From positions 11,520,001 to 11,584,000 of the forward strand of contig CP086569.2 of NCBI GenBank assembly GCA_009914755.4: 64,000 nucleotides of DNA. Direction: 5' to 3'. The translations under genes and the position numbers were made by a program. Under the pieces are notes generated by a model. That model made no database searches and had not been told where the DNA came from. It saw nothing but the letters and a program-made list of their open reading frames with translations. This document shows, one piece after another, positions 8,266 to 24,174 of this stretch. The DNA comes from the human T2T-CHM13v2.0 reference genome, Homo sapiens. Position 1 is the first letter of the stretch. Each line of letters begins with the position of its first letter.

Positions 8266-9530
8266 ATGTCCCACCCGACACCTTCGGACAGCACCCTCCC
8301 TGCAGAAGCCCGGGGACGGGGACGGCGAAGGAGACTCGTTTGGACCCGGAGCCAAAGTGAGGCCCTGCGAGCCAGCTTTGAGCGGAACCCATACCCGGGC
8401 ATCGCCACCAGAAAACGGCTGGCCCAGGCCATCGGCATTCCGGAGCCCAGGTTGCAGATTTTGTTTCAGAATGAGAGGTCAAGCCACCTGAGGCAGCACG
8501 GGCGGGAATCTCGGTCCTGGCCCAGGAGATGCGGCCCGCAAGAAGGCAGGCGAAAGCAGACTGCGTCACCGGATCCCAGACGGCCCTTCTCCTCTGAGCC
8601 ATTGAGAAGGATCGCATTCCAGGCATCGCCGCCAGGGAAGAGCTGGCCAGAGAGACGGGTCTCCCAGAGTCCAGGATTCAGACCTGGTTTCAGAATCGAA
8701 GGGCCAGGCACCCGGGATATGCTGGCAGGGCGCCTGCATAGGCCGGCGGCCTGTGCAACGCGGCCCCCCACGGGTATCACCCTGCTCCCTCGTGGGTCGC
8801 CTTCGCCCACACCGGCACGTGGGGAACAGGGCTTCCCGCACCCCACGTGCCCTGTACGCCTGGGGCTCTCCCACAAGGGGCTTTCATGAGCCAGGGATCG
8901 AGGGCCATCCCCGTGCTCCAGCCCAGCCAGGCCGCGCCAGCAGAGGGGATCTCCCAACCTGCCCCGGCATGCGGGGATTTTGCCTACGCCTCCCCGGCTC
9001 CTCTGGAAGGGGCTCTCTCTCACCCTCAGGCGCCTCGGTGGCCTCCGCACCCAGGCAAAAGCCGGGAGGGCTGTGACCCGCAGCGCCACGGCCTGCTGGG
9101 CCCTTGCCTGGTGGGACAGCCTGGGCCGGCTCAAGCGGGGCCACAGGGCTAAGGAGTGCTTGCGCCACCCGCGTCCCAGGGGAGTCTGTGGTGGGGCTGG
9201 GGCCAGGGACCCCAGGTCCCCGATGCGGCGTGGGAACCACAAGCCGGGCCGCTCCACCTCGCCAGCCCGTGCCCCCGGATGCCTCCACGCTGCAGGGGCA
9301 GTAGCAAGCCATCCCGGTGCCCTCCCAGGCACTCCAGTAGCCTGGGCGCTCGTCTGCACTCCCCTCCGGCCTGCTGCTGGATGAGCTCCTGGTGAGCCCG
9401 GAGTTTCTGCAGCAGGCGCAACCTTTCCTAGAAACGGAGGCCCGGGGGAGATGGAGGCCTTGGAAGAGGCCGCCTCACTGGAAGCACCCCTCAGCGAGGA
9501 AGTATACCGTTTTCTGCTGGAGGAGCTTTA
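8266..9530 (+). pseudogene. DUX4L: DUX4-like double-homeobox pseudogene, copy 1 (most degenerate: frameshifted, several stops)
   Basis: Translation from ATG 8266: [70 protein letters not shown]... (homeodomain 1). TGA at the LLL|R position. Homeodomain 2 ([11 protein letters not shown]) and the C-terminal [11 protein letters not shown] are recognisable in other frames (ORF pieces 8059-8889 and 8847-9152 differ in frame). Confidence 0.8.
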
Positions 9531-10240
9531 GCACGCGGGATTGGGACGGGGTCGGGTCGGGGCAGGGTGGTGGCCTCTCTTTCGCGGGGAAAACCTGGCT
9601 GGCTATGGAGGGGTGTGTCTTCCCCCCCCTCCACTGGGCTGACCGGCCTGGGATTCCTGCCTTCTAGGTATAGGCCCGGTGAGAGACTCCACACAGCGGA
9701 GATCTGCCATTCTTTCCTGGGCATCCCGGGGATCCCAGAGCCGGCCCAGGTACCAGCAGGTGGGCCACAGACTGTGCACGCGCCGGTTAGCGGGCAGCCA
9801 CGTGGGCTGTGGGAGCAGCCCGGGAAGAGCTCTCATGCCTTTCCACCCCCACAACCCCGCCTGACCAACGCCTCCCCACCCCCACCCACCAGCCCCGGAA
9901 AGTGCATCCTCCCCTGGGATGGGTGGAAATCCCCATCCCACGAAACACCGGCCCGCACAGCTCCAGGCCTGACACCCCTCTGGCAGCTCGCATCCTCTGG
10001 GCCTCTGCGCCACCGTCGCCCAGCCGCCGGTACCCTGCAGCATCCCAGCTGCCACCATGGAGCACTTGGCGGTGGAACACAGACCTCTAGCTCTCCTTGC
10101 CGGCCTCCTGGCTAGACCTGCGCTCATTGCGCACTCCGGCTGACGTGCAAGGGAGCCCGCTGGCCTCTCTGTGCCCTTTTCTGTCCCTGAAATTCCTGTT
10201 GAGGCTCTCCCAACACCTTCCGACGCTCGTTAGTCAAAGC

Positions 10241-22769: not shown

Positions 22770-22905
22770 GAGCCGCTGGCTGGCTGTCCGGGCAGTCCCC
22801 CTGGCTGCACCTGCTGCAGCGCACTCGCCGGCTGAGGTGCACGGGAGCCCGCAGACCTCTCTCTGCCCATGTCCGTCCATGAAATTCCGGCTGGGGCTCC
22901 CTGCG

Positions 22906-24174
22906 ATGGCCCTCCTGACAACTTCGGACAGCACCCTCCCCGCGGAAGCCCGGGGACGGGGACGGCAAAGGAGACTCGTTTGGACCCCGAGCCAAAGGGA
23001 GGCCCTGCGAGGCTGCTTTGAGAGGAACCCGTATCCTGGCATGGCCACCAGTGAACGGCTGGCCCAGGCCATCGGCATTCCAGAGTCCAGGGTCCCGATT
23101 TGGTTTCACAATGAGAGGTCACGCCAGCTGAGGCAACATCGGCGGGAATCTTGGCCCTGGCCCGGAAGACGGGGCCCGCAAGAAGGCAGGCGAAAGCGGA
23201 CCGCCGTCACAAGACCCCGAAACACCCTGCTCCTCTGAGCCTTTGAGAAAGATCGCTTTCCAGGCATCGCCGCCAGGTAAGAGCTGGCCAGAAAGACGGG
23301 CCTCCCAGAGTCCAGGATTCAGATCTGGTTTCAGAATCAAAGGGTGAGGTACCTGGGACAGCCTGGTAGGGCGCCCGCCCAGGCAGGCGGGCTGTGCAAC
23401 GCAGCCCCCGGCGCGTGTCACCCTGCTCCTTCGTGGGTCGCCTTCGCCCACACTAGCGTGTTTGGAACAGGGCTTCCCACACCCAAAGTGCCCTGAGCAC
23501 CTGTGGCTCTCCAACAGGGGGCTTTCGTGAGCCAGGGAGCAAGGGACGTCCCCGTGCTCCAGTCCAGCTTGGCCGCACCGGCATAGGGGATCTCCCAACC
23601 TGCCCTGGCTTGTAGGGGTTTTTCCTGTGCCTCCCCGGGTCCTCCGTAAGGAACGCTTTCCCAGCCTCAGGCTCCTCGGTGGCCTCCGCACCCGGGCAAA
23701 AGCCGAGAGGACTGGGACCCGCAGAGCGACGGCCTGCCGGGCCCTTGTGCAGTGGGACAGCCTGGGCCCGCTCAAGCGGGGCCACAAGGCCAAGGTGTGC
23801 TTGCATCACCTGCGTCCCAGGGGAGTCCGCGGTGGGGCTGGTGCCGGGGTCCCCAGGTCACCGGGGCGGCGTGGGAACCCCACGCCGGGGTAGCTCCACC
23901 TCGCCAGCCCGCGCCCCCGGAGGCCTCCGAGTGGCAGGGGCAGATGCAAGGCATCCGGGCGCCTTCCCAGGCGCTCCAGGAGCCGGGGCGCTCGTCTGCA
24001 CTCCCCTCCGGCCTGCTGCAGGATGAGCTCCTGGCGAGCCCGGAGTTTCTGCAGCAGGAGCAACCTTTCCTAGAAACGGAGGCCCCGGGGGAGCTGGAGG
24101 CCTTGGAAGAGGCCGCGTCGCTGGAAGCACCCCTCAGCAAGGAAGAATACCAGGTTCTGCTGGAGGAGCTTTAG
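22906..24174 (+). pseudogene. DUX4L: DUX4-like pseudogene, copy 3: frame preserved, about five in-frame stops, homeodomain-2 helix IQIWFQNQR intact, native TAG stop retained
   Basis: [78 protein letters not shown]... TGA at 23236 (same LLL* site as copies 1 and 2). Further TAA, TGA, TAG and TAA stops. C-terminus ...[26 protein letters not shown] ends at the TAG at 24172-24174. ORF 23752-24174 is in the same frame as the ATG. Confidence 0.85.

What the first reader, a model, noticed from the sequence alone, without database searches (positions are those of the whole stretch)
8266..24174. Copies 1-3 share a nonsense mutation at the LLLR codon that copy 4 lacks, and the homeodomain-2 Trp codon is hit independently in copies 2 and 4
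At the LLL|R position, copies 1, 2 and 3 have ctcctcTGAgcc (8598-8600, 16599-16601, 23236-23238). Copy 4 has ctcctcCGAgcc (intact Arg). This suggests copies 1-3 descend from an already-mutated ancestor and expanded after copy 4 diverged, although recurrent CGA-to-TGA change at a CpG is an alternative. Copy 4 is the unit adjacent to unique sequence. The Trp of IQIWFQN is TGA in copy 4, TAG in copy 2 and intact TGG in copies 1 and 3. These parallel but non-identical hits are the pattern expected from repeated CpG deamination. Copy 2 additionally lost its terminal stop (gaggaatttagg), giving read-through.
Basis: seen in the sequence. Interest (0 to 1): 0.5.

Follow-up and report, generated by a model that had tools for sequence, protein, structure and literature searches.

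The report
Recurrent CpG stop codons in Y-linked DUX4 pseudogenes
Four decayed DUX4-like pseudogenes sit in beta satellite, apparently DUX4L16-19 next to the human Y centromere, and the stop codon shared by three of them is best explained by repeated mutation at one CpG site, not by common descent, so the finding is ordinary.

Summary
At codon 111 (DUX4 Arg111) copies 1-3 read TGA and copy 4 reads CGA. Trp141 is TGG, TAG, TGG and TGA in copies 1 to 4. A 1-bp deletion puts copy 2's terminal TAG out of frame. One coordinate is off by 3: copy 1's TGA is at 8595-8597.

I rooted the four copies on the consensus of 24 other beta-satellite-embedded D4Z4-like units. Copies 1-3 then share only 2 derived sites in 2849, both CpG transitions. 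That equals the count for every other trio, and independent CpG decay predicts 1.18. Copies 3 and 4 share 15 derived sites, 7 of them non-CpG. NJ bootstrap support is 1.5% for a 1+2+3 clade and 78% for 3+4. Parsimony trees with copy 4 outside are 10-13 steps longer.

The tree is close to a star. Each copy is nearer to the family consensus (6-9%) than to its neighbours (11-14%). The same CGA-to-TGA change recurs in unrelated family members. The Trp hits are independent, but the context is tcTGGtt, which is not a CpG.

Gene spacing matches DUX4L16-19 on human chrY. This is a known pseudogene cluster showing textbook CpG decay, so interest is low.

The parts
1..5441 (.). (TTCCA)n pentamer satellite (HSat2/3 type) bordering the cluster
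   Evidence: TRF: period 5, 1088 copies
5472..7470 (+). 68-bp beta-satellite array upstream of copy 1
   Evidence: TRF: period 68
7440..10360 (+). D4Z4-like unit, copy 1. ORF remnant 8266-9531. 1-bp deletions after 8563, 9245 and 9440. Nonsense at homologous codons 111, 159, 296, 347 and 359.
8595..8597 (+). Copy 1, codon 111: TGA (ancestral CGA)
10231..15473 (+). Beta-satellite array between copies 1 and 2
15443..18371 (+). D4Z4-like unit, copy 2. ORF remnant 16269-17536. Nonsense at codons 111 and 141. A 1-bp deletion after 17531 puts the terminal TAG out of frame.
16599..16601 (+). Copy 2, codon 111: TGA
16689..16691 (+). Copy 2, codon 141: TAG (ancestral TGG, non-CpG context)
18262..22120 (+). 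Beta-satellite array between copies 2 and 3
22090..25010 (+). D4Z4-like unit, copy 3. ORF remnant 22906-24174 with no indels. Nonsense at codons 111, 125, 197, 227 and 248.
23236..23238 (+). Copy 3, codon 111: TGA
24878..32553 (+). Beta-satellite array between copies 3 and 4
32554..32865 (-). Antisense Alu inserted at the left edge of copy 4 only. Poly-T at its left end; ATCAC(TTT) is duplicated on both sides.
   Evidence: read directly; the junction is uninterrupted in copies 1-3
32866..35784 (+). D4Z4-like unit, copy 4, the least diverged copy. ORF remnant 33681-34949 keeps frame over 423 codons, with only two stops, at codons 141 and 145.
34011..34013 (+). Copy 4, codon 111: CGA (ancestral state retained)
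34101..34103 (+). Copy 4, codon 141: TGA (ancestral TGG, non-CpG)
34113..34115 (+). Copy 4, codon 145: TGA (ancestral CGA). The same CpG reads CAA in copies 2 and 3 and is intact CGA in copy 1.
35785..64000 (.). Non-satellite flank: AT-rich DNA with Alu, L1 fragments and a PABPC-like pseudogene remnant

Best explanation
The window holds four old, independently decaying D4Z4-like (DUX4-like) pseudogene units. Each is embedded in 68-bp beta satellite, an arrangement known as an LSau/beta-satellite composite. Their spacing identifies them as DUX4L16-19 beside the human Y centromere.

All four radiate almost as a star from a sequence indistinguishable from the present family consensus, which encodes an intact 422-aa DUX4-like ORF. 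Since then each copy has lost 9-17% of its CpG positions to C-to-T or G-to-A transitions.

The TGA at Arg111 (CGA) in copies 1, 2 and 3 is the product of at least two, and probably three, independent CpG transitions at one ordinary CpG. Copy 4 simply kept the ancestral CGA. The TAG and TGA at Trp141 in copies 2 and 4 are two further independent hits, but they are non-CpG G-to-A transitions.

Shown directly: the codon states, the ancestral states, the near-star tree, the absence of a 1+2+3 clade, and the recurrence of the same mutation elsewhere in the family.

Inferred: deamination of 5-methylcytosine as the chemistry, germline methylation of these units, and a rough Miocene age.
For: 1. Polarised site patterns were scored over 2849 positions against the consensus of 24 other units. 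Sites derived only in copies 1, 2 and 3 number 2, both CpG transitions. Every other trio also has exactly 2. The pair 3+4 has 15, of which 7 are non-CpG. No site is derived in all four copies.
2. The independence model gives 1.18 expected '123' sites at 437 CpG positions. Per-lineage CpG transition fractions are 0.126, 0.169, 0.140 and 0.092.
3. The result is the same with a single human D4Z4-like contig and with macaque as outgroups: '123' scores 3 and 4, no more than '134' at 4 and 5.
4. NJ bootstrap support for a 1+2+3 clade is 1.5%, against 78% for 3+4. The best parsimony tree, ((1,2),(3,4)), takes 733 steps. Trees with copy 4 outside take 743-746.
5. Each copy is 6.4-8.8% from the other family members but 11-14% from its neighbours.
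6. The same TGA occurs in unrelated family members. It is in contigs L083, L084/L085 and L086, which are closer to the consensus than to copies 1-3. It is in 3 of 80 near-consensus contigs. At least 8 distinct 110-aa protein clusters end at Leu110.
7. Other CGA codons (21, 96, 111) are where premature stops fall in otherwise intact family members.
8. No gene-conversion tract is detectable between any pair. Copy 4 carries its own substitutions at -31, -7 and +48 nt from the codon.
Against: Under a strict star tree with uniform class rates, a nonsense codon shared by at least 3 of 4 lineages occurs in only 3.8% of simulations.

The internal branches are very short. The 3+4 grouping has only 78% bootstrap support. 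One mutation on a near-zero-length branch would leave no other trace.

The outgroup units come from short-read metagenome contigs contaminated with human DNA, and these may be collapsed mosaics of several copies.

Copies 2 and 3 also share an odd double change, CCGG to CTAG, about 220 nt downstream. Independent mutation explains this poorly.
Confidence: 0.8

Rival explanations
1. One reading: one CGA-to-TGA mutation occurred in a common ancestor of copies 1-3 after copy 4 had split off, and that ancestor then duplicated twice.
For: Three adjacent copies share the identical nonsense codon, and the copy at the edge of the cluster lacks it. A three-fold nonsense coincidence has P=0.038 under the simplest null.
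Against: Copies 1-3 have no non-CpG synapomorphy, and their 2 shared CpG sites match the count for every other trio. Bootstrap support for the clade is 1.5%. Trees of this shape are 10-13 steps longer. Copy 4 is the closest relative of each other copy rather than the most distant. Copy 3 groups with copy 4 on 15 sites spread over the whole unit.
Confidence: 0.04
2. Identity by descent without a clade. The TGA was already a variant among units of a source array, or was copied between neighbouring units by a very short gene-conversion tract. Copies 1-3 (or 2 and 3) would then carry the same mutational event even though their units as a whole are not each other's closest relatives.
For: 3 of 79 distinct near-consensus units carry TGA today, so the variant does segregate within the family. 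The four copies show no shared stem relative to the family consensus. That fits an en-bloc origin from an already heterogeneous array. Copies 2 and 3 share several CpG-derived states within 275 bp, including the CCGG-to-CTAG double change.
Against: No pair shows a significant run of agreeing variable sites (permutation p=0.24-1.0). The copy 2 to copy 3 distance around the codon is among the highest along the unit. All the locally shared sites are CpG transitions. The independence model already predicts the observed number of shared sites.
Confidence: 0.12
3. TGA was ancestral to all four Y copies. Copy 4 regained CGA by back-mutation or by conversion from a consensus-like unit elsewhere.
For: Copy 4 is the least diverged copy, at 4.7% from the consensus against 6.3-7% for the others. 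Partial 'repair' by conversion could produce that.
Against: The family consensus, macaque and 78 of 85 sampled loci have CGA. Copy 4 has its own substitutions 7 and 31 nt upstream and 48 nt downstream of the codon, and its differences are spread evenly along the unit. A T-to-C reversion is a slow non-CpG change. A chimpanzee protein carrying copy-4-specific residues also has Arg111.
Confidence: 0.04

Closest known systems
DUX4L16, DUX4L17, DUX4L18 and DUX4L19 (annotated DUX4-like pseudogenes, human chrY about 11.31-11.33 Mb, GRCh38)
   Same: There are four copies in the same order. Coordinates derived from the nearest-gene distances in a table of PMC8135009 give:
- DUX4L16 to DUX4L17 start-to-start, 8003 bp, against 8003 in the window (8266 to 16269).
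- DUX4L18 end to DUX4L19 start, 9504 bp, against 9507 in the window.
- DUX4L17 to DUX4L19 start-to-start, 17408 bp, against 17412 in the window.
   Different: Nothing is known to differ. Identity rests on spacing, because the reference chromosome could not be aligned with these tools.
[quoted passage not shown]
   Same: Units of about 3 kb, 5'-truncated relative to the 3.3-kb 4q35 unit, are interspersed with 68-bp beta-satellite blocks. Other family members are collinear with copy 2 plus its satellite flanks at about 92% over 4.3 kb. PMC10620044 describes 319 such copies, mostly on acrocentric short arms and pericentric chr1, as highly methylated and holding about 98% of the divergent full-length DUX4 ORFs.
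   Different: The four copies here are far more decayed, at 6-9% from the consensus with stops and frameshifts. The sampled other units are 1.8-4.8% apart, and 14 of 24 have an intact ORF. The cited paper does not list chrY among the main locations.
DUX4 of the 4q35/10q26 D4Z4 macrosatellite
   Same: The double-homeodomain ORF is the same. Copy 4's first 140 residues match solved DUX4 structures at E=4.5e-80. The C-terminal ...EEYR.LLEEL end is conserved.
   Different: These copies are not in a head-to-tail 3.3-kb array, and none has an open reading frame.
CpG hypermutability giving recurrent CGA-to-TGA nonsense mutations (textbook knowledge, from memory)
   Same: The ancestral codon is CGA, with the C in a CpG. 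The change is C-to-T. The same CpG shows the opposite-strand product elsewhere: codon 145 is CGA, CAA, CAA and TGA across the four copies. The change recurs in unrelated copies.
   Different: Methylation of this locus in the germline was not measured here.

Membership tests
DUX4 / D4Z4-like double-homeobox ORF | Two paired-class homeodomains in one intronless ORF | tested here: met
   Pfam PF00046 matches in 2 stretches, E=5.4e-27, on copy 4 residues 1-140. PDB DUX4 chains match at E=4.5e-80 over residues 1-140.
DUX4 / D4Z4-like double-homeobox ORF | Full-length homology, including the C-terminal activation region, over about 422-424 codons | tested here: met
   All four copies align codon for codon to a 422-codon consensus ending ...EEYRALLEEL.
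DUX4 / D4Z4-like double-homeobox ORF | Open reading frame (a functional gene) | tested here: not met
   Each copy has 2-5 nonsense codons and 0-3 one-base deletions. They are pseudogenes.
LSAU-BSAT composite repeat | D4Z4-like unit flanked on both sides by 68-bp beta satellite, collinear with other family members | tested here: met
   TRF finds period-68 arrays between all units. Other contigs align to copy 2 plus its flanks at 90-92.5% over up to 4.4 kb and have beta-satellite ends.
Human chrY DUX4L16-19 cluster | Four copies with the annotated spacing | tested here: met
   Three spacings agree within 0-4 bp with coordinates derived from PMC8135009.
Human chrY DUX4L16-19 cluster | Sequence identity to the reference chrY | not testable with these tools
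   No human genome collection is available here.
Monophyletic copies 1-3 carrying an inherited TGA | Shared derived substitutions other than the TGA, and a supported clade | tested here: not met
   0 non-CpG and 2 CpG shared sites. Bootstrap support 1.5%. 10 to 13 extra parsimony steps.
Recurrent CpG-transition site | The ancestral state is a CpG and the change is a transition | tested here: met
   The consensus context is tcCGAgc and the change is C-to-T. Macaque also has C.
Recurrent CpG-transition site | The same change appears in lineages that are not each other's closest relatives | tested here: met
   L083, L084 and L086 carry TGA but are nearer to the consensus than to copies 1-3. L052, L066 and L080 carry it too.
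Recurrent CpG-transition site | Cytosine methylated in the germline | not testable with these tools
   There is only indirect support. PMC10620044 reports high methylation of divergent D4Z4 copies in somatic samples.
CpG deamination as the cause of the Trp141 hits | The mutated base lies in a CpG | tested here: not met
   The context is tcTGGtt in the consensus and in all copies.

The most novel reading that the evidence does not exclude
The four Y copies could act as 'fossils' showing that the large LSAU-BSAT D4Z4-like family has kept its consensus essentially frozen. That consensus includes an intact DUX4-like ORF and 69% G+C. There are 0 fixed differences in 2849 positions, over the time in which each isolated Y copy changed by 5-7%, almost entirely GC-to-AT. 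This would point to strong homogenisation with GC-biased conversion, or to selection, acting on the recombining copies and absent on the non-recombining Y. The alternative is that the block moved to the Y as an already four-unit segment, so that the shared TGA is an old array polymorphism.
Probability: 0.25. Interest if true: 0.4.

Novelty: already known. Interest (0 to 1): 0.12.

Why it matters
It matters little biologically. These are annotated, dead DUX4-like pseudogenes in pericentromeric satellite, and CpG decay is textbook.

The useful point is methodological. A shared nonsense mutation at a CGA codon is weak evidence of common descent in CpG-rich repeats. About 1 in 7 CpG positions is hit per lineage here, so three-way parallel hits are expected about once per trio in each 2.9-kb unit.

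A minor by-product is the contrast between the decayed Y copies and the well-preserved, ORF-intact family consensus. This could be used to study homogenisation and biased conversion in acrocentric D4Z4-like repeats.

Tried and rejected
- **Gene conversion between copies.** I scored the longest run of agreeing variable sites per pair with 1000 permutations, and took sliding-window distances. Nothing was significant, and copies 2 and 3 are not closer around codon 111.
- **Conversion restoring CGA in copy 4.** No clean tract exists; copy-4-specific differences lie at -31, -7 and +48 nt.
- **Codon 111 as an unusually hot CpG, or selection for truncation.** Among 79 distinct near-consensus units it carries 3 transitions and ranks about 30th of 168 CpG positions, so it is ordinary.
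- **Protein P0104 as a close paralogue of copy 1.** It shares five amino-acid changes with copy 1. Its DNA (L083) is 87.7% identical to copy 1 but 90.5% to a consensus-like unit, so it is not a close relative.
- **Contig L001.** It is chimeric, with an inverted second half. Only bases 1-739 were used.
- **Chimpanzee protein P0019 (A0A2I3SFR4).** It has no DNA on record, so only a protein-level comparison was possible.
- **In-register beta-satellite similarity as proof of local block duplication.** Some arrays match in register at 88-91% over 0.5-2.4 kb. Unrelated family members are just as collinear, so this does not discriminate.
- **dN/dS against the consensus.** Values are 0.57-0.91 with an uncorrected Nei-Gojobori estimate. 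CpG-rich synonymous sites inflate dS, so this is uninformative about past constraint.
- **Rfam scan of the window.** No family was found.
- **Literature search** for D4Z4-like, beta satellite, Y chromosome and acrocentric together. No paper was found.
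Full report
**What is in the window**

Bases 1-5441 are a (TTCCA)n pentamer satellite. Four arrays of 68-bp beta satellite follow, at 5472-7470, 10231-15473, 18262-22120 and 24878-32553. Between the arrays lie four G+C-rich blocks of about 2.9 kb. These blocks align to one another end to end at 86-88% identity: c1 7440-10360, c2 15443-18371, c3 22090-25010 and c4 32866-35784.

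An antisense Alu at 32554-32865 sits exactly at the left edge of c4 and is absent from the other copies. Non-satellite, AT-rich DNA starts at 35785.

Each block carries the remnant of a 422-424-codon ORF. The first 140 codons of c4 match solved DUX4 double-homeodomain structures at E=4.5e-80 and hit the Pfam Homeodomain model twice. These are D4Z4-like, DUX4-like units embedded in beta satellite.

**Which locus it is**

A table in PMC8135009 gives distances from chrY peaks to their nearest genes. From these I derived GRCh38 positions: DUX4L16 start 11,306,917; DUX4L17 start 11,314,920; DUX4L18 end 11,322,824; DUX4L19 start 11,332,328.

| Interval | Derived from PMC8135009 | In the window |
|---|---|---|
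| c1 ATG to c2 ATG | 8003 bp | 8003 bp |
| c3 stop to c4 ATG | 9504 bp | 9507 bp |
| c2 ATG to c4 ATG | 17,408 bp | 17,412 bp |

The window is therefore, with high probability, the annotated DUX4L16-19 pseudogene cluster next to the human Y centromere. I could not align it to the reference directly.

The general architecture is the known LSAU-BSAT composite: divergent units of about 3.1 kb interspersed with beta satellite. PMC10620044 reports 319 copies in T2T-CHM13, highly methylated.

**Check of the observation**

The 12-mer CTCCTCYGAGCC occurs four times, against 0.02 expected.

| Codon | c1 | c2 | c3 | c4 |
|---|---|---|---|---|
| 111 (Arg, LLLR) | TGA 8595-8597 | TGA 16599-16601 | TGA 23236-23238 | CGA 34011-34013 |
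| 141 (Trp, IQIWFQN) | TGG | TAG 16689-16691 | TGG | TGA 34101-34103 |
| 145 (Arg) | CGA | CAA | CAA | TGA |

The codon 141 states come, and the codon 145 states.

Two additions:
- c1 has a 1-bp deletion after 8563. Its TGA therefore sits at the homologous codon but not in c1's current frame.
- The full lesion list is:
  - c1: three 1-bp deletions and stops at codons 111, 159, 296, 347 and 359.
  - c2: one deletion and stops at 111 and 141.
  - c3: no indel and stops at 111, 125, 197, 227 and 248.
  - c4: no indel and stops at 141 and 145 only.

**Finding an outgroup**

A protein search with c4's 140-aa ORF returned 253 DUX4-like ORFs, mostly from human-contaminated metagenome assemblies. A pattern scan of metagenome contigs returned 80 loci encoding DUX4 residues 1-152 at 95-100% identity.

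These are not 4q35 arrays. They are units flanked by beta satellite and collinear with c2 plus its satellite flanks at about 92% over 4.3 kb, so they are other members of the same LSAU-BSAT family.

Twenty-four of them cover the whole unit. They differ from one another by 1.8-4.8%. Their consensus encodes an intact 422-aa DUX4-like protein, and 14 of the 24 are themselves intact. A macaque locus (L002, 82% identical) gave a distant root for 1.5 kb.

**Phylogeny**

Among the four copies alone the tree is nearly a star. Sites unique to one copy number 143, 170, 160 and 100 for c1 to c4. The three possible two-by-two splits have only 24, 19 and 10 sites.

Each copy is closer to the other family members (median 8.0, 8.8, 8.8 and 6.4%) than to its neighbours (11.0-14.0%).

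I polarised 2849 positions on the family consensus:
- Sites derived only in c1+c2+c3: 2, both CpG transitions (34011 and 34244 in c4 coordinates).
- Each of the other three trios: also 2.
- The pair c3+c4: 15, of which 7 are non-CpG, spread from 33248 to 35679.
- No site is derived in all four.

The picture is the same with a single human contig or macaque as outgroup.

Support values:
- NJ with 200 bootstraps, rooted on macaque: 1.5% for c1+c2+c3 and 78% for c3+c4.
- Parsimony over all 15 rooted trees: ((1,2),(3,4)) is best at 733 steps. The three trees with c4 outside need 743-746 steps.

**Is recurrence quantitatively plausible?**

Of 437 ancestral CpG positions, 12.6, 16.9, 14.0 and 9.2% have undergone a transition in c1 to c4. 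The corresponding figure at non-CpG positions is 1.3-2.3%. With independent lineages, the expected number of positions hit in exactly c1, c2 and c3 is 1.18, and 2 were observed. The other trios are expected at 0.6-0.8, with 1-2 observed.

A simulation of the ORF used each lineage's own context-specific rates:
- It gives 2.7-4.2 nonsense codons per copy, against 2-5 observed.
- A codon that is nonsense in at least 3 lineages appears in 3.8% of runs.
- A non-CGA codon hit in at least 2 lineages appears in 35% of runs.

The three-fold stop is thus a mildly lucky outcome of an expected process. It was also picked out after the fact. The Trp141 double hit is unremarkable.

On the best tree only two events are strictly needed, one on a c1+c2 stem and one in c3. 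Support for c1+c2 is weak (20% bootstrap, 8 of 9 shared sites at CpG), so three events are about as likely.

**Recurrence elsewhere in the family**

- At least eight protein clusters less than 90% identical to each other are exactly 110 aa long and end ...LLL or ...LFL. They therefore stop at codon 111.
- I fetched DNA for three of them. All read CTCCTC-TGA. All are closer to a consensus-like unit (90.5-93.3%) than to c1-c3 (86-88.5%).
- Three of the 80 near-consensus loci also read TGA.
- In otherwise intact family members, premature stops fall at CGA codons 21, 96 and 111.
- The site is not exceptional. With 3 of 79 distinct sequences mutated, it ranks about 30th of 168 CpG positions.

**Alternatives examined**

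- Gene conversion among copies. No pair has a significant run of agreeing variable sites (p=0.24-1.0). The c2-c3 distance is not reduced near the codon.
- Restoration of CGA in c4. c4 has private substitutions 31 and 7 nt upstream and 48 nt downstream, and no long clean tract there.
- A chimpanzee UniProt model (A0A2I3SFR4, P0019). It shares 10 of 17 c4-specific amino-acid changes and has Arg at 111. It omits the 11 codons that hold c4's two stops. This suggests, but does not prove, that c4's state predates the human-chimpanzee split. No DNA is on record for it.
- A pre-existing TGA polymorphism in a source array, or a very short conversion tract. Neither can be excluded, and I give them about 0.12 together.

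**The Trp141 claim**

The consensus context is tcTGGtt, which has no CpG on either strand. They are ordinary G-to-A transitions, not CpG deamination.

The real CpG showcase is codon 145. It reads CGA in c1, CAA in c2 and c3, and TGA in c4, which covers both strand products of one CpG.

**Age (inference, rough)**

Macaque differs from the inferred ancestor at about 10% of sites. The copies differ from that ancestor by 3-6% over the same 1.5 kb. About 59% of c4's amino-acid changes are shared with the chimpanzee model. Both suggest the copies began to diverge roughly 15-25 million years ago. I do not rely on this figure.

**Verdict**

The phylogenetic inference drawn from it is not supported. 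The Trp hits are independent but not CpG-driven. The object is a known pseudogene cluster undergoing textbook CpG decay, so interest is low.

Two side observations may deserve a specialist's glance. The family consensus is "frozen" relative to these Y relics. The substitution spectrum is rich in transversions, with C-to-A prominent.

Noticed in passing
window 7440-35784 compared with loci L006-L080: No position out of 2849 is derived in all four Y copies relative to the consensus of 24 other beta-satellite-embedded units. Yet each Y copy is 4.7-7% from that consensus and the other units are only 1.8-4.8% apart. The family consensus (intact 422-aa ORF, 69% G+C) therefore looks unchanged since the Y copies began to decay. 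A strict clock would predict on the order of 100 fixed differences.
   Followed up: partly
c1-c4 units; L084; 24 outgroup loci: The non-CpG substitution spectrum is unusual. The transition/transversion ratio is about 0.5-0.75, and C>A (G>T) is as frequent as or more frequent than C>T. This holds in the Y copies and in the other human family members. Macaque against the consensus gives ts/tv 1.6. About 85-90% of all changes are GC-to-AT.
   Followed up: partly
c2 about 16817-16818 and c3 about 23454-23455 (c4 coordinates 34229-34230): Copies 2 and 3 both carry CCGG-to-CTAG, meaning both bases of one CpG changed. Independent mutation makes this improbable, yet no conversion tract is detectable around it.
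   Followed up: partly
window 32554-32865 (- strand): A full-length Alu is inserted exactly at the beta-satellite/D4Z4-like junction of copy 4 only. It has a poly-T at its left end and an ATCAC(TTT) target-site duplication. The insertion therefore post-dates the separation of the copies.
   Followed up: partly
window 33681-34949: Copy 4 keeps the reading frame over all 423 codons with only two stops, at codons 141 and 145. Its first 140 codons form an open ORF covering homeodomain 1 and most of homeodomain 2. Copy 3 also has no indel in 1269 bp despite 5 stops.
   Followed up: yes
window 38684-39043 (+): This ORF has a poly(A)-binding-protein C-terminal MLLE domain (Pfam PF00658, E=4.8e-12). 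It is probably a PABPC processed-pseudogene remnant in the unique flank.
   Followed up: partly
window 55606-55938 and 62271-63024 (+): LINE-1 ORF1 (Transposase_22) and ORF2 endonuclease fragments. Two adjacent Alu-like repeats lie at 45374-45977, and a 78-bp AT/GT-rich tandem duplication at 49243-49408.
   Followed up: no
window 10912-13298 vs 25351-27737; 18262-18817 vs 24901-25451; 5472-6522 vs 14358-15410: Stretches of the beta-satellite arrays match one another in register at 88-91% over 0.5-2.4 kb. That is about the same divergence as between the D4Z4-like units. However, unrelated family members are equally collinear with the unit-proximal satellite.
   Followed up: partly
L002 (macaque chromosome CM111663.2, about 198.37-198.39 Mb of 198.44 Mb): The macaque relative used as a root lies about 50-70 kb from a chromosome end. 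It consists of two partial D4Z4-like units in inverted orientation, at 9434-10952 (+) and 10944-12417 (-).
   Followed up: no
window 36540-36960: A short G+C-rich, CpG-containing island lies in the otherwise AT-rich unique flank just beyond copy 4. Its 133-aa ORF has no Pfam match.
   Followed up: no
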